Positions 25,581 through 41,895 of a DNA stretch of 64,000 nt are shown piece after piece. The stretch lies in assembly GCA_039586365.1 (NCBI GenBank), contig JBDHKN010000018.1, forward strand, positions 1 to 64,000. The letters run 5' to 3'. Origin of the DNA: Gemmatimonadota bacterium (lineage in GTDB: Bacteria; Gemmatimonadota; Gemmatimonadetes; Gemmatimonadales; GWC2-71-9). How positions within the stretch are numbered: the stretch's first letter is position 1; the number at the start of each line of letters is the position of its first letter. Below the pieces are notes generated by a model. The model searched no databases and was not told where the DNA came from. It saw only the letters and a program-made list of their open reading frames with translations. Position numbers and translations under genes: made by a program.

Positions 25581-25808
25581 TGAGTGGTTGTTAAGCTAAC
25601 GTCTTCATTCTCTATACGCAATATTGCGCCTGATGTTTCAACTGGAGACGGGGGGTAGAATGTGACGAGGCGTGAGCAATAAGTGGTGAGCAGTGGGCGC
25701 CATTCCTCGCTTATCAACCGTTGGGACATCATCTTACGGCCAGTTTGGGTGGGCGTCTGAGGCCGGACGGGTTGGCGCTCGCACCATCGAGCCGCGGAAA
25801 TGAGGCAT

Positions 25809-27093
25809 ATGACTTCGACACATACGATCGAGCAACGGCGGAACATCTGGTCTCGTGCAGCTGAGTTGGCGGCTGAGACTCCGGAGTCGCGTAACCGCTA
25901 CGTGGATTTCCTGCGCGCCCTGTCGATTGGGGCTGTGGTGATTGGGCATTGGCTGGTCGCCGCCCCGTACTTGAATGGCGGGGAGATCAACCTGGAGAAC
26001 ATGCTCTATTACCAGCCCTGGACCCAGTGGCTCACCTGGGCGTTTCAGGTCATGTCCGTCTTTTTCATCGTGGGTGGATACTCCAACGGGGTCTCTTGGC
26101 GATCGGCCCAGCGATCGAATCGCAGGTACGCTGAGTGGTTGAGCGGGCGACTGCAACGACTGGTAGGTCCCGTGTTGCCGCTGCTGTTCGTTTGGGCGTT
26201 GCTCGGCGCTATCGCTCACTGGTGGGGAGTCGATCCCGGGTTGATCAAGCTGGGCTCCCAAATGGCGCTCATCCCGATCTGGTTCCTTGCGGTATACGTA
26301 GGCGCTGTAGTGCTGGTGCCGGTCACTCATGCGGCCTGGCAACGCTTCGGCATGTGGTCGTTTGTGGCACTTGCCGTCGCCGCCGCGTTGGATGATGTTG
26401 GTCTGGCTGGCCGTACATCAGCTGGGTTACGCGTGGCATGATGGAAGACTCACGGGACTCTCGAAATTGCTCCCGCTGTGTCTTGGAGCTCTGCTGATAC
26501 TGGTTGGCCTCGTGACCCTGGGGCCTTATCCACTGAGCATGGTCAGTGTGCCGGGTGAGGCTGTCAGTAACTCGCTGCCACCCAAGCTCACGATGCTGGC
26601 GCTAGGTGTGTTCCAGGGTGGCCTGCTCCTCTCCTTGGAAGCGCCGCTACGTCGCTGGCTTACGCGCATGACGCCGTGGACGGCAACGGTGCTGGTGAAC
26701 GGGATGATCATGACGATCTACCTCTGGCACCTGAGCGCCATGGCATTGATCGCCGGTCTGGGGCTGGCGACTGGCTTTGCAGGTTTGACTCTGGTACCAG
26801 GGAGTGGCGTGTGGTGGCTGTGCCGACCGGTGTGGATTGCTATCCTCCTGGTTGTCTTGGCTCTATTCGGACTGATCTTCGGGCGGTTCGAACGCTCCGC
26901 TGCTGGGTCTGGCAGTATCGGCGCGTGGCGACTCATAGTTGGATCTGCACTAGTGTGTGGTGGACTGGCCTTGGTGGCGCTGGACGGGGTCGGAGGAAGT
27001 GGTTGGCTCGGGATTCGCATCTGGGTAATCGCGCTTCCGTTTGTTGGGGCGGCTGTAGCAGGAGTGAACCCAATGCGCAGCCGGCCGGGTTAG
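25809..27093 (+). pseudogene. Acyltransferase-3 family membrane protein split by a frameshift
   Basis: 5' ORF (RNRYVDFLRA, GHW, WFLAVY) continues in another frame (VWLAVHQLGYAW, MTIYLWH); switch near 26395. Confidence 0.78.
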
Positions 27094-27976: not shown

Positions 27977-29497
27977 ATGACGCTGACTCTCAAAGGAACT
28001 GGACTGACTATAGAGGATGTCGTGCAGGTTTCCCGGGGCGGGTTACGGGTACAGCTGCACCCGAAGGCGGAGGAGAGAATTCTAGCATGCCGTTCCATGC
28101 TCGAGAGGAAGCTAGCAGCGCATGAGATCATCTACGGCATCAACACAGGGATCGGTGAATTCTCGGAGACCAGGCTTGCGGACGATGAGGTCAAGCGGTT
28201 TCAGCGCTACCTGATCTACAACCACGCTGCTGGCATTGGGGATCCTGCACCAGAGGAATACGTCCGAGCAGCGATGCTATCACGCGCCAACGTGCACGCC
28301 AAGGGGCGCTCGGGTATGCGACTCGAGATGACGCAGCTCCTGGTTGAAATGCTGAACCGAGGGGTCACACCGTTCGTCTGCCAGAAAGGCTCTGTTGGAG
28401 CCTCTGGTGACCTGGCGCCGATGTCGCAGATAGCGCTGGTCGCCATAGGCGAGGGACAGGCATGGTTCGAGGGCGAGCTCCTGCCCGGCCACGAGGCGCT
28501 CAGGCGAGCAGGTCTGGAACCGGCCGTGCTACATGCCCGTGATGGCCTCGCCATGATAAACGGTTCCAACTTCCTAAACGGCATGAGCGCGCTCCACCTG
28601 TACGACGCAAACCGCTGGTTGAAACAGGCCGAGATCGCTGCCGCAATGACGCTGGAAGCGTTGAACGCCAACATGAGACCGTATGAGCCCAGGCTGCACC
28701 AAGAGCGCGGGTTCGCTGGAGCGGTGCGAAGTGCCAAGGCGATCATGAAGTGCATACATGGGAGCGACGTGCTCGAAGCGGACAGGAAGAAGGTGCAGGA
28801 CGCCTATTCAATGCGTAGTACCCCTCAGGTGATTGGTGCAGCTCACGATGCCTTGGGCTTCGCACGCAGTCAGGTGGAGATCGAGCTGAACGGCGTTGGT
28901 GACAATCCGGTCTTCTTGGCTGAAGACGACGTGAGTCTGACGGGAGCGAACTTCCAAGGCACTCCTGTGTCGCTGCCGATGGAGCTGATGGGGATGGCCG
29001 TAACAATGGTGTCGGTCTTGTCCGAGCGCCGACTGAATCGCCTACTCAACCCTGCGCTGTCGGTCGGGCTACCGCCGTTCCTCACAGAGAATCCCGGGTT
29101 GAACAGCGGTTTCATGCTGTCCCAATACACGGCCGGCACTCTGATTGTGGAACAACGGATGCTCTCGGCTCCGGCCGCAACCGCATCGATCCCGGCGGCT
29201 GCCGATCAGGAAGACTTCGTTAGTATGGGGATGAACACAGCGATCAAGAACGGTCAAGTGCTCGAGAACGCCTATGGCGTACTGGGGATTGAGTTCATGG
29301 CTGCTGCCCAGGCACTCGATCTCCGCGGGCACAAGGTCGGAAAGGGGGTCGCGGCTGCGCGTGAAGTTGTCAGAAGCCGAGTCGAATACCTCGCGGAAGA
29401 TAGACCTCTCTATCCGGATCACACAGCGATGGCGGATCTGGTCAAATCATGCCAGATCCTCGAGGCGGTGGAAGCAGCGGTCGGGCCGTTGGAGTGA
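27977..29497 (+). CDS. hutH: MIO-dependent aromatic amino acid ammonia-lyase, histidase-like
   Basis: GSVGASGDLAP (ASG MIO), YGINTGIG, QDAYSMR, NHAAG and QEDFVSM (HAL-type His and Glu). Confidence 0.8.
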   Translation: MTLTLKGTGLTIEDVVQVSRGGLRVQLHPKAEERILACRSMLERKLAAHEIIYGINTGIGEFSETRLADDEVKRFQRYLIYNHAAGIGDPAPEEYVRAAMLSRANVHAKGRSGMRLEMTQLLVEMLNRGVTPFVCQKGSVGASGDLAPMSQIALVAIGEGQAWFEGELLPGHEALRRAGLEPAVLHARDGLAMINGSNFLNGMSALHLYDANRWLKQAEIAAAMTLEALNANMRPYEPRLHQERGFAGAVRSAKAIMKCIHGSDVLEADRKKVQDAYSMRSTPQVIGAAHDALGFARSQVEIELNGVGDNPVFLAEDDVSLTGANFQGTPVSLPMELMGMAVTMVSVLSERRLNRLLNPALSVGLPPFLTENPGLNSGFMLSQYTAGTLIVEQRMLSAPAATASIPAAADQEDFVSMGMNTAIKNGQVLENAYGVLGIEFMAAAQALDLRGHKVGKGVAAAREVVRSRVEYLAEDRPLYPDHTAMADLVKSCQILEAVEAAVGPLE

Positions 29498-29746: not shown

Positions 29747-30070
29747 GTGACCGAACTGTTCGTAGGTGCAGCCGTAGCTACAGGCTTCTGGCTGACCGTG
29801 CAATTCACTCGTAGGAAGTCCCTCGCGGTCAGATGGTGGCAGTGGGGCCTGACAGTGTTGGGTTTCATCTATCTGGTGTTTGTGGCTGAGGTTGTGGTTG
29901 GCTTCCTGAGGGAAGGGACTCCCAAGGGCGCAGTGGTGATGGGAACGATGTTGGGTTTCGTAGCGGTTGTGTGGGGTGTCCTATTGGGACGGTTCGTCTT
30001 TCGCGGCAATCTCGCACCGAGGGCTGAGAGCGGTGAGGTGTCAGGGACAGGAGGTGAACATGTCGCATAG
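29747..30070 (+). CDS. rdhB: Reductive dehalogenase membrane anchor (RdhB-like) 1
   Basis: 107 aa, three TM helices, WWQW motif, EG before the third helix; GTG start after AAGGAG; overlaps the rdhA start. Confidence 0.8.
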   Translation: MTELFVGAAVATGFWLTVQFTRRKSLAVRWWQWGLTVLGFIYLVFVAEVVVGFLREGTPKGAVVMGTMLGFVAVVWGVLLGRFVFRGNLAPRAESGEVSGTGGEHVA

Positions 30071-31463
30071 ATCCATGGACAGGCGAGAGTTTCTGGGATT
30101 GTTGGGTGCCGGCTCGGCCATCACGAGCGTTGGGTTCGGCGGCACGCGATTGGTAGCGCGGACGAACAGCGGCGCGGTAGTTGAGTCAGAGAGTGAGTAC
30201 GGTGGCTTCTTGGTCGAAAAGCTGACGACCGGGCAAATCCCTTACGAATGCGATCCCACCGTGCTGCGACGGATGAGTGAGAAGAACACCGTGTTTAGCC
30301 GCAACGGGTGGGATCACGTCCGGCGGGACATCTTGACAGCGGCCGATGACATCACTGAAATCAACCTAGTGGAGGGTGAGGGGAAGAACCCTAATCAGAC
30401 CAGGCTGGATTACGCGCTGATGGCGGCTGCGTGGCGACACGCGAACATGGGAGGCAGTGGTGGTGACTACGGCTGGGGTAGTGCCGGTGGGATGGTGAGA
30501 GACGCTGGGCTCCACGAGATGGGACCGTGGGATCCTGCCGAATTGGGGATGACCTGGGAGGATGCATCTCTCGCCGTGAGACACGCCGCACTCTTCTACG
30601 GTGCTTCACTCGCTGGAATAGCCGAACTCAACCCGTTGTGGCTCTACGCGGATCACTACGCCCCCACCCGGGATAACGCCGAGCGAGCCGTCCCTGTCCA
30701 ATCAGAAGGGGACCGGCTCGACCGGGGTGGGGATGCGTGGTATATCCCACAGTCGATGAATCGGGTTATAGCCTTGGCGTTCGAGGAGTACTACTTCGGG
30801 ATTGCCAACTCACCTGGAAGGTTGGCATCGGCAGCGACAGGTGACGGTTATTCGCGGATGGCGGTAACGTCGTCCACCCTTGCGGATTTCATACGGGGGC
30901 TGGGTTATCGGGCCTTACCGGCGGGCAATGGCGTTGGCTTGAGCATCCCCATGGCAATCGACGCCGGTTTGGGTCAGCTCGGACGCCTCGGGCTGCTCAT
31001 CACGCCAAAGTACGGCCCTCGTGTCCGTCTCGCCAAAGTGATAACCGACATGCCACTGGTTCCGAACAGTCCTATCGATTTCGGGGTGACGGAATTCTGC
31101 GACATCTGTATGCTGTGCGCTGACGAATGTCCGAGCGGCGCGATCACCGATGGTCCACGTACCTGGGAGGGCAAATCGGTCTCCAACAATCCGGGCACAC
31201 ACAAATGGTATGTGGAACCCGAGAAGTGTTACGACTTCAATGGCTTCAGTTGCTCCAACTGCAAGCGTTGTTGCCCATTCAACAAGCCCAATGACTCGTG
31301 GCTCCATCGAATGATCAGAGAGGTCGTAGCTGGACGAATTAGGCCTGCTGATCGTGTGATGGTTCGTCTGGATCAAGTGAGTGGGTACGGGAGGCAGCTA
31401 GAGGATACCGAGTTTTGGAGGTTGGATGGGAGCAAGAGTGTCACGGCGCGTGAGAGGATGTGA
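30060..31463 (+). CDS. rdhA: Reductive dehalogenase catalytic subunit 1 (corrinoid, 2x[4Fe-4S])
   Basis: Tat motif DRREFL; AIDAGLGQLGRLGLLITPKYGPRVRL; CDICMLCADECP and CX7CSNCKRCCP; RBS GGAGGTG. Confidence 0.92.
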   Translation: MSHRSMDRREFLGLLGAGSAITSVGFGGTRLVARTNSGAVVESESEYGGFLVEKLTTGQIPYECDPTVLRRMSEKNTVFSRNGWDHVRRDILTAADDITEINLVEGEGKNPNQTRLDYALMAAAWRHANMGGSGGDYGWGSAGGMVRDAGLHEMGPWDPAELGMTWEDASLAVRHAALFYGASLAGIAELNPLWLYADHYAPTRDNAERAVPVQSEGDRLDRGGDAWYIPQSMNRVIALAFEEYYFGIANSPGRLASAATGDGYSRMAVTSSTLADFIRGLGYRALPAGNGVGLSIPMAIDAGLGQLGRLGLLITPKYGPRVRLAKVITDMPLVPNSPIDFGVTEFCDICMLCADECPSGAITDGPRTWEGKSVSNNPGTHKWYVEPEKCYDFNGFSCSNCKRCCPFNKPNDSWLHRMIREVVAGRIRPADRVMVRLDQVSGYGRQLEDTEFWRLDGSKSVTARERM

Positions 31464-31648
31464 ATTGAGGAAAGACCATGTCTGAAGCTGGCCTGCTATC
31501 TCGGGGGACAGCATTCTCAAAGCACCACTCACCTCACACGTGTTCGAAGAGGTTGACGATGTTCTCTCTGCTGCGGCGTAACAGGGAGAATTGCGGCACC
31601 TGTTCGATGGAATCACGACTGGCGAACCACCAAAAACGAGCGTGAACC

Positions 31649-33154
31649 GTGAGCGAGAACCAACCGGAGAGCGGGGTTAGCCGGCGTCAGTTTTTGAAGG
31701 GTGCTGGAGTGGTGAGCGGAATAGCTGGTGGTGCTGGCCTTGGGCTGTTCGGCTATGCCGCTGGCAGGGACCCACATACGTACCTTGGCTGGCAGAACGA
31801 ACAGGGTGCGAGCCAGACCTTCTACAGAAAGCGTTATGAGGTGGAAGAGCCCACATATGAGGTCGTCGGACCCACCAGCCGTCCAGACGCCCGGGTCGAG
31901 AATATCTTCGCGCGCCGCGGCAGCTTCCGAATACAGTACACGAGGGTCAAGGAGGGTGGTGAGTTCGAGGAACCCCTCAAGTCGTACTACGATAACCACC
32001 CACAAGATCTCGAGTTGGATATCATCAACCAAGAAGAGATCATGCCCCGGATGATGCAGGATCAGGCTACGTACGGCGACCAATTCCTGCTTGCGGTGGC
32101 CTGGTCGAGCGCAATGGGTGCTGTCTCTCCTCTGCCGATATCCGGTCCGCCCCAAGAAGCCGATTTCCCTCGGCCCAGAGGCGGTGGGATGATGGCGGGT
32201 GGAATGGGTATGGGGGGGGCGCCGCAACCGTTGCGGCTCAAGGATCCGGCAAAGACCGCACTGTTGATCAAGAAACTGGCTCACGAGTTCGGCTCCACTC
32301 TCGTGGGGATAACCGAACTCAATCCGGACTGGGTCTACGGCTATCCGCTCCGCGGCAGGGGCTTCGAGAACGTAGACGAGCCGCTGGAGATCCCGGCTCA
32401 CTGGAAGTATGCGATCGTGGTTGGGACACCGATGTCATGGGATCCCATGTACGCCAATCCCAACTACGGCACTTCCAACGATGCCTACTCGCGCTCCCGT
32501 ATCATTGCAGCGCGGCTTGCGGCCTTCATCAAAGCATTGGGATATCCGGCTCGCACGCACACTCCAGGCAACAGCTATGATCTGATGGTACCGCCGATTG
32601 CGGTCGATGCAGGTCTGGGTGAACACGGACGGCACGGCATCGTGATCACTCCGGAGCTGGGGAGCAACATCAGACCGGCTATTGTGACCACCAACATGCC
32701 GATGGCTACCGACAAGCCTATCGACTTTGGTGTGCAGGATTTCTGTAGGCACTGCAAAGTCTGCGCGGAGAATTGCCCCAGTGGTGCAATCACGCTGGGT
32801 GACAAGGTCGAAGTGCGGGGCTACCGCCGCTTCAAGGTCGACACGGCGAAGTGCAACAACTTCTGGACGTCAAATCTCGGGAACATCGGTTGCCGCCTCT
32901 GCGTCAGTGTATGTCCCTACACTCGTAAGGCCAACTGGCTCCACAGAACCGCACTCAAGTTGACAGCAAACGATCCTACCGGTCTGTCGGAGCGAACGTT
33001 GACGGCACTTCAGAAGGGGATGTACGACGCTCCTGATCCGCAGACCTACTACATGCCGTCACTTGGTGGCGAGAACTCCTCATATCGTGAGCCCCCCTGG
33101 TGGCTCAAGACGGAAGACTTCATCGAACTCGAGGCAGACCATGCAGATCTTTAA
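31649..33154 (+). CDS. rdhA: Reductive dehalogenase catalytic subunit 2
   Basis: Tat motif SRRQFLK; AVDAGLGEHGRHGIVITPELG; CRHCKVCAENCP and CX12CRLCVSVCP. Confidence 0.9.
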   Translation: MSENQPESGVSRRQFLKGAGVVSGIAGGAGLGLFGYAAGRDPHTYLGWQNEQGASQTFYRKRYEVEEPTYEVVGPTSRPDARVENIFARRGSFRIQYTRVKEGGEFEEPLKSYYDNHPQDLELDIINQEEIMPRMMQDQATYGDQFLLAVAWSSAMGAVSPLPISGPPQEADFPRPRGGGMMAGGMGMGGAPQPLRLKDPAKTALLIKKLAHEFGSTLVGITELNPDWVYGYPLRGRGFENVDEPLEIPAHWKYAIVVGTPMSWDPMYANPNYGTSNDAYSRSRIIAARLAAFIKALGYPARTHTPGNSYDLMVPPIAVDAGLGEHGRHGIVITPELGSNIRPAIVTTNMPMATDKPIDFGVQDFCRHCKVCAENCPSGAITLGDKVEVRGYRRFKVDTAKCNNFWTSNLGNIGCRLCVSVCPYTRKANWLHRTALKLTANDPTGLSERTLTALQKGMYDAPDPQTYYMPSLGGENSSYREPPWWLKTEDFIELEADHADL

Positions 33155-33461
33155 CAGCGGCCTGTTCTGGTTTGTCGAAGGAGTTCTCTGTTGTGTCACA
33201 CTGCTCGGACTCAAGGCATGGGCGCAGGATCGCTCGATCCCGACACCGTGGTGGAAGTGGGTCGTGTTGGTGCTGTGGGTAAGTCTCGCTGGCTTCACCA
33301 TTGCGTTTGTAGGTACAAGCTTCGGTGAAGGTGAGTCGACTGCGGCGATCCGTGGTGGTATGCTCTTCGGTATCCTTGCCGTGTTGTCAGGAGTTGGCGC
33401 GTGGCGACTGTGGATGATCGGGGCCGGGTCTAGTAACCAAGTGACGGATGCGAAGCCATAG
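33141..33461 (+). CDS. rdhB: Reductive dehalogenase membrane anchor (RdhB-like) 2
   Basis: 106 aa, three TM helices, WWKW motif, GEGE loop; overlaps the rdhA2 stop. Confidence 0.8.
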   Translation: MQIFNSGLFWFVEGVLCCVTLLGLKAWAQDRSIPTPWWKWVVLVLWVSLAGFTIAFVGTSFGEGESTAAIRGGMLFGILAVLSGVGAWRLWMIGAGSSNQVTDAKP

Positions 33462-34608
33462 ACGCGCGCTATTCGCATACTCGCTCGGAGTCATCGCGCT
33501 CATCATCGCGCTTTGGTACGGTAGGACGCGAACAGCGCCAGATCTTGCCGTGCCCATTGCAGAGATATTTCCCCAGGCTACGGCTTTCAGATTCGAGCGC
33601 GGTGTGTTCCACGTCTACGACGATCGCGAGAGTCTACTGGGTTGGGCTGGTAGCGGCAGTGAGAGTGGGTATGGCGGTCCGATGTTACTCGTTGTGGGGA
33701 TCGACACCCTTGGGAGGGTAGCTGGGTCAAGGGTTGTAGAGCAACGAGAGACACCGATATTCTGGCGGATGGTGAAGGCAAGGGATTTCCTCACATCGTT
33801 CGTTGGTGACCACTTCGACCAAATCAACTACGACTATGGCGCAGTAGTTGGTTTGACCGGTGCGACAATTTCGGCGACCGCGATTGGCGCGAGCGTGAGG
33901 AGTGCCGTTGCCGACTTGGCCAGTGAAGCATTCGATGTCACCGTGCCGGTCCCAGCCCGGCCCTTCGAGTTCGGGCTTCTCGAAATCACCGTCCTGCTAT
34001 TGTTCATTGTCGGTGCGGTCACACAGCGGGCGCGAGGTCCGGTGCGGCGTCGAGTCAGGTGGGCATGCCAGATCACAGGGCTCCTTGTCCTAGGCTTCTG
34101 GAGAGATTCACCGATCACGCTCGCAAAGATCACGGCACTGCTTTCCGGATACTTCCCGGATCCGCGGACTCAAGTTGCGCTCTATTTGTTGATCGCAGGC
34201 TTTGTGCTGACATCGTTCCACTGCAGCCGCAACCTCTATTGCCTTTACGCCTGTCCATTTGGGACAGCACAGCGGTGCGTTGGCGTCATCGGCGGGAAAG
34301 GTCTCAAGCTTCCGATCTGGTTCGTCCGGTGGATGGAGCGGATCCGCAACGTTGCGGTGTTCGCGGCCATGTTCATGGCGTTTCTCACCCTCAAGCCGGT
34401 GTTGGCCAGCTACGAGCCCTTCGCGGTACTCTTTTCGCTCAACGGGACAACTCTGCAATGGCTCTTGTTGTTCATAGTGTTGGTGATGTCGCTAGGGATC
34501 AGCACTCCCTGGTGCAACCTGTTTTGCCCGATGCGCACCATAGAACTCCTGTTCCAGAATCTCCGCAGGACGTTACGCGGACCACGGACGGCATCCGCGA
34601 ATGAATGA
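33448..34608 (+). CDS. rdhC: RdhC/PceC-like (NosR/NirI-type) FMN-binding membrane electron-transfer protein
   Basis: GYGGP, ETP, LTGATIS flavinylation motif, multiple TM helices, two CxxxCP motifs (CLYACP, CNLFCP). Confidence 0.88.
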   Translation: MRSHRRALFAYSLGVIALIIALWYGRTRTAPDLAVPIAEIFPQATAFRFERGVFHVYDDRESLLGWAGSGSESGYGGPMLLVVGIDTLGRVAGSRVVEQRETPIFWRMVKARDFLTSFVGDHFDQINYDYGAVVGLTGATISATAIGASVRSAVADLASEAFDVTVPVPARPFEFGLLEITVLLLFIVGAVTQRARGPVRRRVRWACQITGLLVLGFWRDSPITLAKITALLSGYFPDPRTQVALYLLIAGFVLTSFHCSRNLYCLYACPFGTAQRCVGVIGGKGLKLPIWFVRWMERIRNVAVFAAMFMAFLTLKPVLASYEPFAVLFSLNGTTLQWLLLFIVLVMSLGISTPWCNLFCPMRTIELLFQNLRRTLRGPRTASANE

Positions 34609-34717
34609 CCAAAGTAAGCATGCAGTCAGGCTGTATGACGTTGCGCTAGTTGTACTTGGGCTGTCGGTCTTTGCGGTGATTGCCGCGATCCTGGTACAGG
34701 GCCATCTTGGTGTGTGA
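34601..34717 (+). CDS. 38-aa single-TM microprotein, not in the ORF track
   Basis: MNDQSKHAVRLYDVALVVLGLSVFAVIAAILVQGHLGV; ATG overlaps the rdhC stop (ATGAATGA). Confidence 0.6.
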   Translation: MNDQSKHAVRLYDVALVVLGLSVFAVIAAILVQGHLGV

Positions 34718-34797: not shown

Positions 34798-37698
34798 ATG
34801 CGTTACATCACAGTAGTCCGGACCGTGTTGGGTTGTGTTGTGTCTGCAACCGTCTCTTCGCTGACACCTGATTCGGCCACAGCGCAAGTGTCAGATGAGG
34901 CTCTATTGCAGGCGTTCCGCTGGCGAAACATCGGCCCAGCTAACATGGGTGGCAGGGTGTCCGATATCGAGGCGGTGGAGGGTGATTTCAAGGTCGTCTA
35001 TGTGGCAGCAGCATCGGGAGGTGTTTGGAAGTCGGTGAATGCAGGCACCACCTGGGAACCAATATTCGACGACTATCCTTCGGCCTCGATAGGTGACATC
35101 GCGATTTTCCAGCCGAACCCGGAGATTATCTGGGTGGGAACCGGGGAGGCCAACAACCGCAATAGCGTGGCGTGGGGCGATGGCATTTACAAGTCGACGG
35201 ATGGCGGCAAGACGTTCGCCAGTATGGGTCTTGCGGAGACACACCAGATCGCGCGGGTCATCACACATCCGGCCAATCCGGACATCGTTTACGTCTGCGC
35301 GATCGGCCATCTCTGGGGCTACTCCGGCGATCGCGGTTTATTCAAGACCACTGACGGTGGTGAGACGTGGACCAAGCTAGCTGATGGTCTTCCCAATGAC
35401 GACAAGACCGGGTGCACTGATTTAGTGATACACCCGGCCGATCCCAATGTGCTCTACGCTGGTCTTTACCACCGCATTCGCCGGCCCTGGACCTTCTATA
35501 GTGGCGGTCCGGACGGAGGCATCTTCAGGTCGACAGATGGCGGCGCCAGTTGGGTGAAGCTCACGAACGGCCTTCCACAGGAAGAAACAGGCCGTATCGG
35601 TCTCGCTATTTATCGGCGGAATCCCAGCATTGTGATGGCGTTTGTGGAGGCGGAGAGGAAGGACGACTTGAGCAGACCAGGCTCTGGCGTGTACCGGTCG
35701 GAGGACGGCGGTGACAACTGGGCATATGTCAACACCTATAACAACCGACCATTCTACTACAGTCAGATCCGCATCAATCCGCTTGACGATGAACGCGTGT
35801 ATCTGCTCACTACAAGATTCATGGTTTCCGACGATGGTGGTGAGACCATACGTAATGGCAGCGAGGATGAAGAGATACATGGCGACTTCCACGCCATGTG
35901 GCTCGATCCGCACGATGGTGATCGCTACTACATCGGTGACGACAAGGGATTACACCTCACCCATGATCACGGTGAACACTTCGTCTTCCTGGATAACCTG
36001 CCGATCGCGCAGTACTACAGAATCGGCGTCGACATGCGGGATCCGTACTACGTGTATGGTGGGCTGCAAGACAATGGGACCTACGGGGGTCCGAGTTTCG
36101 CGCGGGATATCCGCGGTATTCTGAATGACTACAACTGGAAGCTGCATTGGGGTGACGGCCAGGACATTCAGGTCGATCCCACTGACTGGCGCACTCTCTA
36201 TACGGAGGCGGAGAATGGTAGCTTCCGGCGCTACAACGTTGAGACACACCGCTCTTCTGGTGCCAGACCCAACCCGCTGAACGTCCACAATTACCGGGTA
36301 GCAGTCCTAGATTCTGAGCAGCGAGGTGGGCGCGAGTTCCGCTACAACTGGTCTGCGCCACTTGTGATGTCTCCGCATGATCCCAGCACGCTCTTCTTGG
36401 GCGCCCAGTACCTGTTCAAGACGACTGACCGGGGAGAGACCTGGACCATAATCAGTCCCGATCTTACCACAAACGACGCTGAGAAGTGCACGCCGGGGCA
36501 GAGCGGTGGTGTGACGCCCGATAACACGGGCGCTGAGCAGCACTGTTCAATAACCTCGGTGGCGCAGTCCAGTATCTCCCGGGATGTCATATGGGTTGGT
36601 ACCGATGACGGCAACGTTCAGGTAACCAAGGATGGAGGTGCGACGTGGGACAATGTCCGTGGCAACATCACGGATGTACCGGAAGGAATCTGGCTGGGTC
36701 GACTTGAGGCGTCACACCACAATCCGGGCACAGCCTACGTGACCTTCGACGGTCATCGGAGTGATGTGTTCACTCCGTGGGTTCTTAAGACAACCGACTA
36801 CGGTGACACTTGGACGAACATCAGCGGCAATATCCCGGCTGGTCAGGTCGTCCATCTGTTGCGGGAGGATCTGCGAAATCCGAATCTCTTGTTCGTTGGA
36901 ACGGAGTTTGGCGTGTTCACATCCCTAAATGGTGGCCGCAGCTGGACTCGGTTCATGAACAACTTGCCGACTGTTGCAGTGCAGGACATCGTAATACACT
37001 CGCGCGACAATGACCTGGTAGCAGGTACCCATGGACGCAGCATCTGGATCCTGGACGACATCACACCGCTGCAGCAGTTGACTGATGACGTCATTGCGTC
37101 CGATGCCCATCTATTCGAGCAGAGGGTCGCCACTCTCTGGGAAAATACGAGTCGTGGCGGCCAGCGGGGCCACTTCTGGTTTGCGGGAGAGAATCCCCCC
37201 ACCATCGAACCGACCAGTAGTCTGCCCAGGGCCGAATTCAGGAACGTCGTGCTGGTCACGTATTACCTGGGAAAGATCCCGAACCAGCCAGCTACCCTGG
37301 AGATCAGAGAGGTCAGCGGCCGGAACGGACGTACGGTGACACTCGGCTCTGCACCAGGCATCCACCGTTACCGTTGGGACCTGGCTTTCGATGCGGAGCC
37401 GTTCACGGACGCGCAGGTGGCACGTGTTTCGGAGGCATTCGAGAGGGCGATCAGTGAGATTCCGTTTCCCCAGATCCAACGGGCATACACCCGATTCCAA
37501 GAGGCTGCGACTCCGCGTGAGCAGCGAGACGCTGTTCAAATCCTCCTGAGTCCGCCCTTCGCCTCCGGTCTCGGGGCCGAGTACGGTACACCTACTGCCG
37601 GTCCCGGCTCATACTTGCTGACGATGACGGTTGATGGGACTGCGTACACCAGCACGCTCACCCTCCGACCGGATCCGTTGTTGACGAACAGTCAGTAG
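34798..37698 (+). CDS. Secreted VPS10/BNR-repeat beta-propeller protein, paralog of 277..3489
   Basis: Signal peptide; WRNIGPANMGGR; Asp-boxes; RPFYYS; HGDFHAMW. Confidence 0.88.
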   Translation: MRYITVVRTVLGCVVSATVSSLTPDSATAQVSDEALLQAFRWRNIGPANMGGRVSDIEAVEGDFKVVYVAAASGGVWKSVNAGTTWEPIFDDYPSASIGDIAIFQPNPEIIWVGTGEANNRNSVAWGDGIYKSTDGGKTFASMGLAETHQIARVITHPANPDIVYVCAIGHLWGYSGDRGLFKTTDGGETWTKLADGLPNDDKTGCTDLVIHPADPNVLYAGLYHRIRRPWTFYSGGPDGGIFRSTDGGASWVKLTNGLPQEETGRIGLAIYRRNPSIVMAFVEAERKDDLSRPGSGVYRSEDGGDNWAYVNTYNNRPFYYSQIRINPLDDERVYLLTTRFMVSDDGGETIRNGSEDEEIHGDFHAMWLDPHDGDRYYIGDDKGLHLTHDHGEHFVFLDNLPIAQYYRIGVDMRDPYYVYGGLQDNGTYGGPSFARDIRGILNDYNWKLHWGDGQDIQVDPTDWRTLYTEAENGSFRRYNVETHRSSGARPNPLNVHNYRVAVLDSEQRGGREFRYNWSAPLVMSPHDPSTLFLGAQYLFKTTDRGETWTIISPDLTTNDAEKCTPGQSGGVTPDNTGAEQHCSITSVAQSSISRDVIWVGTDDGNVQVTKDGGATWDNVRGNITDVPEGIWLGRLEASHHNPGTAYVTFDGHRSDVFTPWVLKTTDYGDTWTNISGNIPAGQVVHLLREDLRNPNLLFVGTEFGVFTSLNGGRSWTRFMNNLPTVAVQDIVIHSRDNDLVAGTHGRSIWILDDITPLQQLTDDVIASDAHLFEQRVATLWENTSRGGQRGHFWFAGENPPTIEPTSSLPRAEFRNVVLVTYYLGKIPNQPATLEIREVSGRNGRTVTLGSAPGIHRYRWDLAFDAEPFTDAQVARVSEAFERAISEIPFPQIQRAYTRFQEAATPREQRDAVQILLSPPFASGLGAEYGTPTAGPGSYLLTMTVDGTAYTSTLTLRPDPLLTNSQ

Positions 37699-38666: not shown

Positions 38667-39215
38667 CTATACCTTGTCCCGCAAGATCTCAGGGCGTGGC
38701 TGAGGAATGACGACTTTGTTGACCAACAGGCCTTTGTTGCGAATGTATGCAGCACCTGCATCGACGGCGGTGGTCACGGCTGCCACGTCGCCGGTCAGTG
38801 TGACGTATCCTTTGCCACCGATCGCCATGGCCAGGTGGATCTCTATCAGCTGTACGTGTGCGGCTTTCACAGCCGCATCGGCGGCTTCGATGATCGACGC
38901 TACCGAAAATGTCTCAATGATTCCCAGGGCGCCCGTCTTTTCGATCACCCGGGTGCCGCTGATCGCTGGGAAAACCTCAGGGTGGACGTTAGGGATGATG
39001 AGATCGTCGACCACTGTGTCGCCCCCGATCTCCAAGCCAGCCTCGATGCTGGAGCGTACTGCGGCGGTCTCACCCGCCACCATCACCATGAATTTCCCTG
39101 GGCAAATCGATCGATTGAATACCATCTGGACCCTTGCCGCCTTGAGCAACGCATCCGCAACCTCGTAACCTTTGGCTATCGACGTCAGCTCGATCAGTCC
39201 GATGGAGTGTTCCAT
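38667..39215 (-). CDS. pduT: Tandem-domain microcompartment shell protein (BMC-T, PduT-like)
   Basis: Two BMC domains; ICPGK pore Cys; ADAAVKAA; GGKGYVTLTGDV. Confidence 0.9.
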   Translation of the reverse strand: MEHSIGLIELTSIAKGYEVADALLKAARVQMVFNRSICPGKFMVMVAGETAAVRSSIEAGLEIGGDTVVDDLIIPNVHPEVFPAISGTRVIEKTGALGIIETFSVASIIEAADAAVKAAHVQLIEIHLAMAIGGKGYVTLTGDVAAVTTAVDAGAAYIRNKGLLVNKVVIPQPRPEILRDKV

Positions 39216-39239
39216 CAATACCTTGGCCGTTTACCTAGT

Positions 39240-40577
39240 TCACGAACCGGCCGGCGACCGGTCTACCACGATCGTGTCGTCAACTGAACGCACGATTCCA
39301 GTCAGGCTAGCATGAATGGGGACGCTCAGTCCGGACGCCACCTCTTTGGCCACCATATCTCCAAGTTTGACTTCAGCTCCCTCGGCGGCCACCGGAATGG
39401 CAGCGAGACCGATATGCTGTTGCAGTGGAATGGCTACGGTACTTGGTTCCGGCACATCGGCCCGTAGCGGAGCTGCTGCAGAGTAGCGGTCCAACCCAAG
39501 GCGTCGAGTCAGCCGGCCTGTCGGTACCCCGCGGTAGCTCTTCAAGGGATGTACGTCCTGTGCTAGCCGTTGGAGTTGTTCGGGCGACAACCACTTATCG
39601 CGCTTCTTGAGATCCCGCTTGGTCACGACGCACACGTTCCGTGGATCGAGGTCCTCCGGACAGGCCCACAGAGAGCAAATGTTGCAGTCGCAGCAAGCCT
39701 GGGCCCAATGTGTGAGAGTCGTACTCATCTCACCGCTGGTAAGCAATGACCGCATCACGAGATGAGGTTGGATCGGGTATCCGAGGAGGTATCGCGGACA
39801 CATTTCCGTACATAGACTACACTGATCGCACGCTGACTTGCCGAAGCGCACGAATGCAGTCTCCGTTTGAGACTTGCGTACTGCCAGCCTTGACTTACGT
39901 GGTACTGCGATGAATCCACTCGAGACTCGCGTGACAGGAGTCGACATATCAGTTACCACGCTACCCATCATCGGTCCACCATCGATCAAGACGAAGTCTT
40001 CGATGGTCGCCCCCCCGGCGGCCCGGAGCACATCACCGTAGCTCATGCCGATCGGGAACCATGCCGTGAGCGGTTGCTGTACGTCACCGTGCACAGTCAT
40101 CATGGAATGTGTCACAGGATGGCCGTGGGCAGCACGGTGTACGTTGTACAGGGTCTCGACGTTTTGTACTAGTACACCGATGTCAAGCGGTAATCCTCCT
40201 GCGGGAATCCGTCTACCAGTAGCTTGGTAGACCACTTCGTACTCATCACCGGCAGGGTACACGTCATCCATCTCGCGGACCGTGATGTTCGTCGGTGAGT
40301 GCTCTGAGATCGAGCGTATCGCTTCCCGGTTCTTTCCCTTGATGGCGACGATCCCTCGCTCGGCACCCGTATGCTCCATCGCGCGCAACATCCCATCGAG
40401 GATCTCTGCCGGATAGTGTTCCATTACCGCTTGATCTTTGTAGAGCAGTGGCTCGCACTCGGCCCCGTTGGCGATGACCGTGTCCACACGCGTGTCAATC
40501 TTCTTGTAAGTAGGGAAACCAGCCCCACCTGCGCCGACCACGCCTGCGCTTTGCACTAGTCGGACTAGACTTGCCAT
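39240..40577 (-). CDS. pduS: PduS-like (RnfC-related) FMN/4Fe-4S oxidoreductase
   Basis: GVVGAGGAGFPT, NGAECEP, YPAGDE, GGPMMG, CDQCSLCTEMCP, CCDCNICSLWACP, QHIG; adjacent to pduT. Confidence 0.88.
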   Translation of the reverse strand: MASLVRLVQSAGVVGAGGAGFPTYKKIDTRVDTVIANGAECEPLLYKDQAVMEHYPAEILDGMLRAMEHTGAERGIVAIKGKNREAIRSISEHSPTNITVREMDDVYPAGDEYEVVYQATGRRIPAGGLPLDIGVLVQNVETLYNVHRAAHGHPVTHSMMTVHGDVQQPLTAWFPIGMSYGDVLRAAGGATIEDFVLIDGGPMMGSVVTDMSTPVTRVSSGFIAVPRKSRLAVRKSQTETAFVRFGKSACDQCSLCTEMCPRYLLGYPIQPHLVMRSLLTSGEMSTTLTHWAQACCDCNICSLWACPEDLDPRNVCVVTKRDLKKRDKWLSPEQLQRLAQDVHPLKSYRGVPTGRLTRRLGLDRYSAAAPLRADVPEPSTVAIPLQQHIGLAAIPVAAEGAEVKLGDMVAKEVASGLSVPIHASLTGIVRSVDDTIVVDRSPAGS

Positions 40578-40647
40578 GTTCCGGTGCAGGCCGGCGCCGG
40601 CTGGTACATACTCTTGTGTTGGATGACGGCAGGCCTGGACGGTTGCA

Positions 40648-41895
40648 TCAGGGGTGTGGAACATCCGATAGCACGCGGAATGTATCGCGGGCGATCAGGA
40701 GTTCTTCGTTGGTGGGTATGACATAGGCTTTGAGGGCGGCACCGTCGGCCGTGATTTCGCCTAGCAGGCCCTCAGCCAGATTGTTGTTCTTCTCCGTGTC
40801 GAGTATCAACCCAATCGCCTCCAACCCCATACTGATCCGCTCGCGGATTTGGGGAGATCGCTCGCCGATGCCACCGGCGAAGATGACGGCCTCCGCTCCT
40901 CCCATCTCGGCCAGGTACGCTCCTATGTAGTGCTTGACGCGATGACAAAACATGTCGATCGCCAGTCTCGCTCTGCGGTCTTGGTTCTCTGCCTCCTCCT
41001 CCAACAACTCCTTCATATCGCTAGTAAGACCGGACACGCCGAGCAAGCCAGAATGCTTGTTGAGCATGGTGTCGATTTGCGCAGTGCTCATTCCCTCTTG
41101 AATCGACAGGTATTCGATCAGAGATGGGTCGATGCTTCCTGAGCGGGTGCCCATAACCAGGCCCTCGAGCGGTGTGAATCCCATCGATGTGATGTACGAC
41201 TCACCTGCCTTGATCCCACACGCAGAGCAGCCATTCCCCAAATGGAGAGTTATGATGTTCACTTGCTCACGACTCAGTCCCACGATCTTCCGGTAACGGT
41301 AGGATAGATAGCGGTGTGACGTGCCATGGAAACCATAGCGCCGGATCTTGTGTCGGCGGTACAACTGATAGGGTATAGGGTACAAGTAAGAGGTTTCCGG
41401 CATCGTCGAGTGAAAGGCCGTATCAAACACCGCGACCTGTGGTATTCCCTCACCAAGAATCTCGGTTGCAGCTCGAATACCCTTGAGGTTTGCAGGGTTA
41501 TGTAGCGGTGCCAGATCGATGCAGTCTTCGATGCCTTCGATCACCTCAGCGTCGATACGAACCGACGTTCGGAAATGCTCGCCCCCGTGCACCACCCTAT
41601 GGCCCACCGCATGGATATCTGCCAGAGACGAGATATTGCTGACCGCCGACGCTCGCGAGACGATCCACCGCAGGATGGTGTCGATGGCCGCACGATGGTC
41701 CCGCAGTGCCTCGGCATGCTTCTCTTTGGGATGTCCGTCGGCTTGGAAAGTGAGCAGCGCCTGTCCTCCAACCCGTTCCACGACGCCGCTCGCCAGCCGA
41801 CGATCGGCGTCGTTAGATATGCGATCGAGGTCAGTTTCGATGATCTGGAATTTTACCGTCGCGGAACCACAATTGAGTACCAGTACATTCATCAT
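40648..41895 (-). CDS. ackA: Acetate kinase
   Basis: VLNCGS, GHRVVHGG, APLHNP, FDTAFH, YGFHGTSH, HLGNG, TNEEL. Confidence 0.95.
   Translation of the reverse strand: MMNVLVLNCGSATVKFQIIETDLDRISNDADRRLASGVVERVGGQALLTFQADGHPKEKHAEALRDHRAAIDTILRWIVSRASAVSNISSLADIHAVGHRVVHGGEHFRTSVRIDAEVIEGIEDCIDLAPLHNPANLKGIRAATEILGEGIPQVAVFDTAFHSTMPETSYLYPIPYQLYRRHKIRRYGFHGTSHRYLSYRYRKIVGLSREQVNIITLHLGNGCSACGIKAGESYITSMGFTPLEGLVMGTRSGSIDPSLIEYLSIQEGMSTAQIDTMLNKHSGLLGVSGLTSDMKELLEEEAENQDRRARLAIDMFCHRVKHYIGAYLAEMGGAEAVIFAGGIGERSPQIRERISMGLEAIGLILDTEKNNNLAEGLLGEITADGAALKAYVIPTNEELLIARDTFRVLSDVPHP

What the first reader, a model, noticed from the sequence alone, without database searches (positions are those of the whole stretch)
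29747..34717. Respiratory-type reductive dehalogenase locus rdhB-rdhA-rdhA-rdhB-rdhC in a probable non-canonical host
Seen: two divergent Tat-signal RdhA proteins (DRREFL, SRRQFLK), each with two Fe-S motifs and each overlapping its own three-TM anchor gene in mirror order (BA, then AB), followed by an RdhC-like protein with a TGAT flavinylation motif and two CxxxCP motifs. Known: Tat-RdhA, RdhB and RdhC are the organohalide-respiration architecture of Desulfitobacterium and Dehalobacter, unlike cytoplasmic catabolic NpRdhA/BhbA enzymes. Inference: the flanking genes look like a Gemmatimonadota/Acidobacteriota-type peptide degrader, a background from which I know of no characterised organohalide respirer. 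This could be an undescribed system coupling peptide catabolism to reduction of natural organohalides.
Basis: partly seen in the sequence, partly recalled or inferred. Interest (0 to 1): 0.88.

Follow-up and report, generated by a model that had tools for sequence, protein, structure and literature searches.

The report
Two-dehalogenase cassette in sulfate-reducing Gemmatimonadota
An uncultured Gemmatimonadota bacterium with sulfate-respiration genes carries a recurring six-gene cassette that joins two distantly related vitamin-B12 dehalogenase-family enzymes, their membrane anchors, a flavin-type membrane protein and an overlooked tiny membrane peptide, and it likely lets the cell use natural halogenated compounds as extra electron acceptors, which is untested.

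Summary
Both Tat-RdhA pass TIGR02486 (214 and 178 bits; cut-off 160) and fail QueG. Both anchors are RdhB homologues, and RdhC has its motifs. The host is Gemmatimonadota, with dsrAB/aprA, haem-copper oxidases, TatC, ApbE and a Btu-like importer. No sign of a chimera.

The locus is two modules, rdhB1-rdhA1 and rdhA2-rdhB2-rdhC, each free-standing in many phyla. They were joined once and co-inherited in a Gemmatimonadota-centred clade (12 of 16 scorable Gemmatimonadota-labelled loci, 0 of 39 other named taxa). RdhA1 is PceA-like with the full menaquinol pocket. RdhA2 belongs to Han et al. 2025's 'novel clade', is closer to catabolic NpRdhA and keeps only part of that pocket. A sixth gene, a 38-aa membrane peptide, is conserved and is fused to RdhC in three loci.

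The peptide-catabolism link is not supported: a same-genus genome has the flanking genes adjacent without the cassette. rdhA in Gemmatimonadota is already in print from metagenomes, and the pair sits undiscussed in that paper's supplement. The scan earlier noted only a distant rdhA-rdhB pair in another genome. Verdict: new variant of a known kind; function untested.

The parts
29747..30070 (+). rdhB1, three-helix membrane anchor (one Glu of the ExE motif, E56)
   Evidence: Family profile hits Dehalococcoides RdhB at E 1.2e-6 and rdhB2 at 5.8e-9; best of 100 other small membrane proteins scores E 3.2; hhalign B1-B2 98.6%. No PceB hit in PDB. E56 in 58 of 58 rows; second Glu not conserved.
30060..31463 (+). 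rdhA1, Tat-exported PceA-like corrinoid/2x[4Fe-4S] reductive dehalogenase family protein with complete menaquinol-pocket residues
   Evidence: TIGR02486 214 bits; SmPceA 212 and DhPceA 179 bits; Y264, N290, R323 in 76 of 76 rows; K409, H416, R420, D438, Y443 in every row that covers them; 72% relative classed 'quinone-dependent respiratory' in Han 2025 Table S7.
31649..33154 (+). rdhA2, Tat-exported RdhA of Han et al.'s 'novel clade', core closest to NpRdhA; partial quinol pocket; Asn272-equivalent replaced by Pro
   Evidence: TIGR02486 178 bits; NpRdhA 160 vs SmPceA 126 bits; Y280, R328, W406, P306 in 76 of 76 rows and R342 in 75 of 76; 71% and 69% relatives (L029, L031) classed 'novel clade'.
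33141..33461 (+). rdhB2, three-helix anchor with full ExE motif (E63, E65)
   Evidence: Family profile's only PDB hit is PceB 8q4h_C, E 0.004; hits Dehalococcoides and T. lovleyi RdhB at E 5.9e-8 and 9.4e-7; E63 and E65 in 79 of 79 rows.
33448..34608 (+). rdhC, membrane protein with predicted FMN-Thr140 and two CX3CP motifs
   Evidence: PF04205 and PF12801 above cut-off; TGATIS motif and CxxxCP at 265 and 356; 24% to T. lovleyi RdhC, E 8e-25; groups with RdhC of rdhA2 modules. The upstream Asp of the ApbE motif is Val here.
34601..34717 (+). 38-aa single-helix membrane peptide overlapping the rdhC stop; likely a detached extra C-terminal helix of RdhC
   Evidence: Separate gene in 19 of 24 scorable loci of this RdhC clade (window included), fused to RdhC in 3 more (L034, L036, L115), absent in 2. 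Held-out score 30 bits; next best of 110,229 short frames in the genome 10.8. Codon-position differences 0.43/0.28/0.60. No Pfam hit; Atlas gave only sub-0.9 leads.
27977..29497 (+). hutH histidine ammonia-lyase: left flank, not part of the cassette
   Evidence: NF006871 547 bits above cut-off; directly next to the VPS10 gene in G002.
34798..37698 (+). VPS10/BNR-repeat protein: right flank, not part of the cassette
   Evidence: PF15902; 15 paralogues in the genome; near 3 of 31 pair loci and 5 of 129 other loci.

Best explanation
This is an accessory six-gene cassette made of two reductive-dehalogenase modules (rdhB1-rdhA1 and rdhA2-rdhB2-rdhC plus a peptide) that likely gives a facultatively anaerobic, likely sulfate-reducing Gemmatimonadota two periplasmic terminal reductases for different natural organohalides. 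Shown: gene content, motifs, the single joining of the modules, co-inheritance, the empty site in a same-genus genome, and host genes for Tat, ApbE, Btu-like import, dsrAB/aprA and complex I. Inferred: (1) both RdhA bind imported corrinoid and two [4Fe-4S] clusters and are Tat-exported; (2) RdhA1 with RdhB1 works like DhPceA2B2, oxidising menaquinol at the A/B interface and passing electrons via Fe-S to cobalamin; (3) RdhA2 with RdhB2, whose quinol pocket is only partly kept, is a second reductase, probably helped by ApbE-flavinylated RdhC and its extra helix; (4) electrons come from the menaquinol pool shared with sulfate respiration, as proposed for Desulfoluna; (5) the substrates are probably marine bromo- or iodo-aromatics, with the two enzymes covering different compounds or successive steps.
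For: Family cut-offs passed and QueG failed. SmPceA active-site Tyr246/Asn272/Arg305 are invariant in the RdhA1 family, and Tyr and Arg are kept in RdhA2 (roles in PMC5500849). All five DhPceA quinol-pocket residues named in PMC10624902 (K489, H495, R499, D515, Y520) are kept in RdhA1. RdhB is adjacent in 62 of 65 scorable RdhA1 loci and 77 of 78 scorable RdhA2 loci. Paired genes fall in one clade in each tree (25 of 26 and 24 of 25), and their distances correlate (Mantel rho 0.72, p 1e-4, n 20). ApbE lies within the fetched flank in 6 of 160 loci. Host: tatC, nuo and a btuC/D/B-like cluster, two ApbE, dsrA, aprA, NiFe hydrogenases. Futalosine menaquinone genes are present in 7 of 7 (MqnA/D) and 6 of 7 (MqnC family) same-genus genomes. 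Precedent: marine sulfate reducers respiring bromoaromatics with rdhABC (PMC7031245). Near-identical DNA occurs in estuary and marine sediment runs.
Against: There are no activity or expression data. Both proteins are at most 38% identical to any reference RdhA I could compare, so no substrate can be transferred. PF13486 is not passed. No menaquinone pathway gene (mqnA/D, mqnC, menC, menD) was found in G000 itself, which is 86% complete. No CobS, CobU or CobT was found, so the cell depends on outside corrinoid, and the Btu-like genes score below the equivalog cut-offs. RdhA2 lacks the Asn272 equivalent and the R499 and D515 equivalents. RdhB1 has only half the ExE motif. RdhC is absent next to RdhA2 in 26 of 68 scorable loci, so it is not obligatory, and PceC was far less abundant than PceA in the model system. 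The flavinylation motif lacks its Asp in this copy; PMC12052999 reports only minor effects of that change in another protein. No regulator or rdhT is conserved beside the cassette. The cassette is rare: RdhA2 in 3 of 401 and RdhA1 in 2 of 401 phylum genomes, G000 included.
Confidence: 0.55

Rival explanations
1. [quoted passage not shown]
For: RdhA2's core is closest to catabolic NpRdhA/BhbA and shares their 12-residue spacer in the second Fe-S motif (joined with catabolic and transmembrane types at 84/80, not starred). The host is rich in peptidases and already has O2 and sulfate respiration. No cognate regulator was found.
Against: Tat plus RdhB with quinol-pocket residues ties RdhA1 to the quinone pool. 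No ring-degradation, transport or peptidase gene is conserved with the cassette. The flanks are an ordinary syntenic pair.
Confidence: 0.2
2. One or both proteins, most likely RdhA2, reduce a non-halogen substrate by corrinoid chemistry (as QueG does an epoxide).
For: RdhA2 has an invariant Pro at the Asn272 position and a long branch. Han et al. say their novel clade has no biochemical validation. The families are widespread in lineages with no shown dehalogenation.
Against: Both pass TIGR02486 and fail QueG. The genome has its own QueG-like genes on C125 and C86. The catalytic Tyr, whose NpRdhA equivalent is essential, is invariant. Export to the periplasm excludes tRNA as substrate (inference).
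Confidence: 0.13
3. RdhA1 and RdhA2 form one hetero-oligomer (A1A2B1B2 with RdhC and the peptide), a mixed version of PceA2B2 in which RdhA1 supplies the full quinol pocket and RdhB2 the full ExE loop.
For: The pair is kept across several Gemmatimonadota orders with correlated divergence. A second, independent joining in another order exists (L172; AU test rejects one clade, p 1.5e-4). The losses look complementary. PceA is a dimer.
Against: Each module stands alone in most loci (RdhA2 without RdhA1 upstream in 53 of 68; RdhA1 without RdhA2 downstream in 52 of 67). The same residue patterns hold in the solo copies. RdhA1 was lost again inside the paired clade (e.g. L026, L034, L063, L073). The 'mirror' order is simply each module's native order.
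Confidence: 0.1
4. Assembly or binning artefact.
For: The tetranucleotide profile is slightly low (9th percentile); no listed contig spans the whole stretch.
Against: Flanks are syntenic with same-genus G002; same-genus G007 has both modules at contig ends; the order recurs in 30 loci; bridging contigs exist.
Confidence: 0.02

Closest known systems
PceA2B2 menaquinol:organohalide oxidoreductase and pceABCT of Desulfitobacterium hafniense TCE1 (PDB 8Q4H; PMC10624902)
   Same: Tat-RdhA, three-helix RdhB and RdhC with FMN and CX3CP motifs; RdhA1 keeps the five named quinol-pocket residues; the RdhB2 profile hits PceB.
   Different: Two unrelated RdhA in one operon; no rdhT; extra membrane peptide; about 36% identity to the T. 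lovleyi PceA-type protein; Gram-negative, facultatively aerobic host.
PceA of Sulfurospirillum multivorans (PDB 4UQU; PMC5500849)
   Same: Best solved relative of RdhA1 (212 bits); Tyr246, Asn272 and Arg305 conserved.
   Different: The RdhA1 family has a 7-residue spacer in the second Fe-S motif (10 in Sulfurospirillum) that removes the Trp376 loop; S. multivorans makes its own corrinoid, this host shows no CobS/U/T.
'Novel clade' RdhA of Han et al. 2025 (PMC12219181)
   Same: RdhA2 relatives at 69-71% are listed in it; RdhB partner; found in Gemmatimonadota, Aminicenantia, Planctomycetota; Table S7 holds a quinone-dependent and a novel-clade gene side by side on two contigs.
   Different: The paper's main text has no 'rdhC', and the sections I read do not discuss the pair or the peptide. 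Its 'N-terminal TMH' lies directly after the RR in these proteins and is probably the Tat signal h-region (my inference).
NpRdhA of Nitratireductor pacificus and BhbA of Comamonas 7D-2 (catabolic RdhA; PDB 4RAS)
   Same: Best solved relative of RdhA2's core; Tyr426 and Arg472 equivalents (numbers recalled) and the 12-residue spacer are shared.
   Different: RdhA2 has a Tat signal and RdhB/RdhC, no duplicated N-terminal domain and no NAD(P)H domain; Arg instead of Lys488.
rdhABC clusters of Desulfoluna spongiiphila (PMC7031245)
   Same: Marine sulfate reducer with several divergent RdhA and RdhC; model for electron sharing with sulfate respiration.
   Different: Desulfoluna's clusters are separate, have regulators and de novo corrinoid synthesis; sequence identity to them was not tested.

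Membership tests
Reductive dehalogenase catalytic subunit (RdhA) | TIGR02486 above curated cut-off | tested here: met
   214.4 and 178.5 vs 160.35
Reductive dehalogenase catalytic subunit (RdhA) | Pfam PF13486 above gathering score | tested here: not met
   16.1 vs 24.3 for RdhA1; no hit for RdhA2. Only 1 of the 240 listed homologues carries PF13486, so the model misses these clades.
Reductive dehalogenase catalytic subunit (RdhA) | Two Fe-S motifs (CX2CX2CX3CP; CXnCX2CX3CP) | tested here: met
   Eight Cys conserved in all covering rows of 76 per family
Reductive dehalogenase catalytic subunit (RdhA) | Active-site Tyr, Arg/Lys and Asn around the corrinoid | tested here: inconclusive
   All three met in RdhA1; Tyr and Arg met but Asn replaced by Pro in RdhA2
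Reductive dehalogenase catalytic subunit (RdhA) | Corrinoid binding and halide release | not testable with these tools
   Needs protein; the AlphaFold model of RdhA1 was poor (pLDDT 52)
Respiratory quinone-dependent RDase (MOOR, PceA2B2 type) | Tat signal on RdhA | tested here: met
   RRxFL motifs; 77 of 80 and 69 of 77 full-length relatives have one; tatC present
Respiratory quinone-dependent RDase (MOOR, PceA2B2 type) | Adjacent RdhB with three helices and ExE loop | tested here: inconclusive
   Met for RdhB2; RdhB1 is a homologue with only the first Glu
Respiratory quinone-dependent RDase (MOOR, PceA2B2 type) | C-terminal menaquinone-pocket residues K489, H495, R499, D515, Y520 | tested here: inconclusive
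   5 of 5 in RdhA1; in RdhA2 His kept, Lys->Arg, Tyr probable, Arg and Asp not kept. PMC10624902 notes these residues also occur in quinone-independent RDases.
Respiratory quinone-dependent RDase (MOOR, PceA2B2 type) | Host makes menaquinone | tested here: inconclusive
   Not found in G000 (86% complete); futalosine genes in 7 of 7 genus relatives
Respiratory quinone-dependent RDase (MOOR, PceA2B2 type) | Growth coupled to dehalogenation | not testable with these tools
   Uncultured host
RdhC (Buttet et al. 2018, PMC5928378) | [S/T]G[A/S]TX[S/T] FMN motif and two CX3CP motifs | tested here: met
   TGATIS at 137-142; CxxxCP at 265 and 356. The stricter motif with upstream Asp is not met (Val).
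RdhC (Buttet et al. 2018, PMC5928378) | About six transmembrane helices, FMN domain outside after helix 1, in an rdh cluster | tested here: inconclusive
   Hydropathy gives 4 segments at the strict and 7 at the loose threshold; no topology predictor available; context met
QueG epoxyqueuosine reductase | TIGR00276 above cut-off; cytoplasmic, no Tat or RdhB | tested here: not met
   45 and 55 vs 200; own QueG-like genes elsewhere; rooted outside both families
Catabolic RdhA (NpRdhA/BhbA) | No Tat, no RdhB, often 700-1000 aa with extra domains | tested here: not met
   Both proteins are 467-501 aa with Tat and RdhB
RDase ortholog groups (90% identity rule, recalled) | High identity to a characterised RdhA | tested here: inconclusive
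   At most 38% to six plasmid-borne references; the RDase database itself was not available

The most novel reading that the evidence does not exclude
RdhA1, RdhA2, RdhB1, RdhB2, flavinylated RdhC and its detached extra helix assemble into one mixed respiratory complex, the first heterodimeric reductive dehalogenase. It would join a PceA-type and an NpRdhA-like catalytic subunit for stepwise dehalogenation of a natural polyhalogenated aromatic, making sulfate-reducing Gemmatimonadota a new phylum of organohalide respirers and giving a direct handle on what RdhC does.
Probability: 0.1. Interest if true: 0.85.

Novelty: new variant of a known kind. Interest (0 to 1): 0.52.

Why it matters
If the best explanation holds, Gemmatimonadota join the organohalide-respiring phyla, and marine sediment sulfate reducers outside Desulfobacterota take part in natural halogen cycling. 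The cassette is also a compact test bed for two open questions: what the uncharacterised 'novel clade' RdhA does, and what RdhC does. The conserved peptide after rdhC (fused to it in three loci; a small hydrophobic ORF also follows rdhC in T. lovleyi, though it scores only 5 bits on my profile) may be a missing subunit that reconstitution attempts would leave out. The surprise is tempered because rdhA genes in Gemmatimonadota and both clades are already catalogued from metagenomes.

Tried and rejected
AlphaFold2 of RdhA1 with 40 relatives gave mean pLDDT 52; I did not use it and ran no fold search. No structure of RdhA2 was obtained.

Expression: no RNA holder listed; this says nothing either way. 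No 16S gene in the assembly, so taxonomy rests on RplB and genus-level synteny. Rfam found no family in the window or in seven loci, including the Btu-like cluster. No sigma-70 promoter or convincing terminator was found in 29.4-34.9 kb. No terminal repeats or target-site duplication around the cassette, and no shared upstream motif by eye in 19 paired loci.

Obligate pairing was first suspected from shared contig lengths and rejected by synteny. A link to hutH, VPS10, BMC or peptidase genes was rejected. Plasmid carriage: 7 of 72,556 plasmid records match RdhA1, all under 60% identity. The RdhB1 profile's only PDB hit was an unrelated transporter at E 0.012, taken as chance. The Atlas search of the peptide gave nothing at or above 0.9. 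The AU tests did not finish; the trees are quick trees and those are FastTree. Supplement search by CSMAG names found nothing; contig names did.

Full report
OBSERVATION. The five genes are real and co-directional: rdhB1 29747-30070, rdhA1 30060-31463, rdhA2 31649-33154, rdhB2 33141-33461 and rdhC 33448-34608. Both RdhA pass TIGR02486 (214.4, 178.5; cut-off 160.35) and fail QueG (45, 55; cut-off 200); neither passes PF13486. They are 33% identical to each other. RdhA1 is closest to SmPceA and DhPceA among solved proteins (212 and 179 bits). RdhA2 is closest to catabolic NpRdhA (160 bits against 126 for SmPceA). Profiles of both anchors hit Dehalococcoides RdhB and each other but none of 100 other small membrane proteins of the genome at E below 0.4, and the RdhB2 profile's only PDB hit is PceB. 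RdhC has the three motifs by which Buttet et al. define the family.

HOST. The window is G000:C20 of a 5.44-Mb assembly, 86% complete and 3.3% contaminated. All 6 organism-named relatives among 120 listed RplB hits are Gemmatimonadota, the best at 96%. dsrA and aprA pass their cut-offs on the rplB contig C97; earlier scan notes gave this lead. dsrA passes in 3 of 8 genus genomes. The genome also has two haem-copper oxidases, NiFe hydrogenases, complex I and tatC, two ApbE, a btuF/C/D/B-like cluster below equivalog cut-offs, B12-dependent mutases and 11 molybdopterin-family matches. CobS, CobU and CobT were not found. Menaquinone genes were not found in G000 but are present in 7 of 7 (MqnA/D) and 6 of 7 (MqnC family) genus relatives. 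A third, transmembrane-type rdhA lies on C63 and has counterparts in several relatives.

NOT A CHIMERA; AN ACCESSORY CASSETTE. Composition is within the genome's range. Contigs of other runs bridge hutH-rdhB1 and rdhA1-rdhA2, and depth is similar over cassette and flanks; these runs may include the source sample. Same-genus G002 has hutH 78 nt from the VPS10 gene with no cassette. Same-genus G007 has rdhB1-rdhA1 and rdhA2-rdhB2-rdhC at two contig ends in other surroundings. In a phylum sample, RdhA2 was found in 3 of 401 and RdhA1 in 2 of 401 genomes, G000 included. hutH is near 0 of 31 pair loci and VPS10 near 3 of 31, with 15 paralogues in G000.

TWO MODULES, JOINED ONCE. I fetched the best 80 of 102 RdhA2 loci from genome contigs and the best 80 of 183 RdhA1 loci from metagenomes. 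Of the RdhA2 loci, rdhB2 follows in 77 of 78 scorable, rdhC in 42 of 68, and rdhA1 precedes in 15 of 68: 12 of 16 labelled Gemmatimonadota, 3 of 13 unnamed, 0 of 39 other named taxa. Twelve loci lacked upstream sequence and were not scored. Of the RdhA1 loci, rdhB1 precedes in 62 of 65, and the next gene is rdhA2 in 15, rdhC in 36 and something else in 16 of 67 (13 not scorable). Some loci are near-duplicates, and handles may overlap named loci, so the counts are not additive. So B1-A1(-C) and A2-B2(-C) are free-standing modules and the 'mirror' order is each module's native order. Paired RdhA2 (24 of 25) and paired RdhA1 (25 of 26) each fall in one clade (supports 83 and 95, quick and FastTree trees). 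Their distances correlate over 20 non-redundant loci (rho 0.72, p 1e-4; kin are not independent). RdhA1 was lost again in several members. The exception, L172 (A2-B2-B1-A1-C), is a separate joining (AU p 1.5e-4). RdhC of the pair groups with RdhC of rdhA2 modules.

SIXTH GENE. A 38-aa hydrophobic ORF overlaps the rdhC stop by 8 nt. In the 29-member RdhC clade, 5 loci end too early; of 24, 19 have the peptide as a separate gene, 3 have it fused to RdhC's C-terminus and 2 lack it. A profile from 15 other loci scores the held-out window copy 30 bits; the next of 110,229 short frames in the genome scores 10.8. Third codon positions vary most (0.43/0.28/0.60). It was not found after other RdhC groups (best 5.4 bits, T. 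lovleyi). I infer a detached extra helix of RdhC. A search for rdhC with 'small membrane protein' found no paper.

RESIDUES. In 76 distinct RdhA1 sequences the equivalents of SmPceA Tyr246, Asn272 and Arg305 are invariant, as are those of DhPceA's quinol-pocket K489, H495, R499, D515 and Y520 where covered (roles). The second Fe-S motif has a 7-residue spacer (77 of 80), which deletes the Trp376 loop and would open the active site (inference). In 76 RdhA2 sequences Tyr and Arg are kept, Asn is Pro, Trp376 is kept, and the pocket keeps His, Arg for Lys and probably Tyr but not Arg499 or Asp515. RdhB2 has ExE in 79 of 79 rows; RdhB1 has only the first Glu. RdhC's ApbE motif has Val for Asp in the window and 15 other copies, Asp in 38 of 74; a review reports minor effects of losing it. 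ApbE lies within the flank of 6 of 160 loci.

MECHANISM. Most likely (0.55) the cassette supplies two periplasmic terminal reductases fed from the menaquinol pool of a facultative sulfate reducer. RdhA1-B1 would work like PceA2B2, and RdhA2-B2 with help from RdhC and its peptide, on different natural organohalides with imported B12. Export, cofactor binding, electron path and substrates are inferred. Rivals: non-respiratory dehalogenation (0.2), a non-halide substrate (0.13), a hetero-oligomer (0.1), artefact (0.02). Against a strict RdhC dependence of RdhA2: RdhC is missing in 26 of 68 RdhA2 loci and is common beside solo RdhA1.

WHAT IS KNOWN. Han et al. 2025 (PMC12219181; I saw passages, sections 6, 7 and 9, and searched rows of one supplement file that was cut when stored, 27 of 32 Gemmatimonadota places) classify rdhA from cold-seep MAGs. 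The contig of L031 carries a 'quinone-dependent' gene next to a 'novel clade' gene, 72% and 69% identical to RdhA1 and RdhA2; a second Gemmatimonadota contig shows the same adjacency; L029 is 'novel clade'. That table assigns L031's genome to phylum JAGLTZ01 rather than Gemmatimonadota. The main text has no 'rdhC', and the sections read do not mention the pairing; its supplementary figures were not visible and could show it. Other papers: PMC5928378, PMC10624902, PMC7031245, PMC5500849, PMC12908670 and PMC12052999 (passages), PMC6797604 (first of four parts); all others as search listings only. Searches found no characterised Gemmatimonadota dehalogenase, no description of this operon and no RdhA heterodimer; the library lacks most subscription papers. 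NpRdhA residue numbers Tyr426 and Arg472 and the 90% ortholog-group rule are recalled; Lys488 is supported by the K-to-Q change in 6zy0.

VERDICT. Real, respiratory-type, in a non-canonical host. It is a new variant of a known kind: a conserved two-clade rdh cassette with an unannotated RdhC-linked peptide.

Noticed in passing
G000:C63:11322-11933 (L003:1435-2868, - strand): A third rdhA-like gene with N-terminal membrane helices and no Tat (transmembrane/hybrid type); similar genes in G002, G003, G004, G006 and G015, so more widespread in the genus than the cassette.
   Followed up: partly
window 38667-41895 (- strand): Small bacterial microcompartment cluster: acetate kinase, PduS/RnfC-like protein and a tandem BMC shell protein; also present in G002.
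   Followed up: no
window 25800-27093: An acyltransferase-3 gene is split into two overlapping frames; read contigs in two runs show 50 extra letters at 26396/26397, so the split may be an assembly deletion or a strain difference.
   Followed up: partly
window 34714: One contig of run X4 matches the window from 34714 onward and has 255 unrelated letters before it, right at the peptide's stop; possibly the cassette's right edge in a close strain. Single contig, small-share run.
   Followed up: no
L203:7162-7305 (Trichlorobacter lovleyi plasmid pIAE1): A 47-aa hydrophobic ORF overlaps the rdhC stop in a pceABCT-type cluster; it scores only 5.4 bits on my peptide profile, so it is an analogue at best.
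   Followed up: partly
L123:3792-5732 and nine other RdhA1-only loci: An AprA/SdhA-like flavoprotein lies 2.3-2.9 kb downstream of rdhA1 in 10 loci, and an amidinotransferase/arginine-deiminase-like gene in 6; possible clues to that subclade's function.
   Followed up: partly
L026:3295-3537; L067:9880-10624: Decay of the first module inside the paired clade: a truncated rdhB1 with no rdhA1 (L026) and an rdhA1 split across frames (L067).
   Followed up: partly
G000:C16:820-2670 and C97:37156-39006: Two full-score aprA copies in one assembly; duplication or bin contamination not resolved.
   Followed up: no
G000:C55:35000-57300: A cluster of multihaem cytochrome genes (up to 21 CxxCH motifs in one protein), suggesting extracellular electron transfer.
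   Followed up: no
G000:C86:12775-13233 (L004:1231-1980): A short 249-aa QueG-like Fe-S/corrinoid protein besides the full QueG on C125.
   Followed up: no
L006:1462-2625 (G002) and L007:1456-2676 (G008): RdhA of about 390 aa above the TIGR02486 cut-off with no Tat signal seen, in relatives of the host.
   Followed up: no
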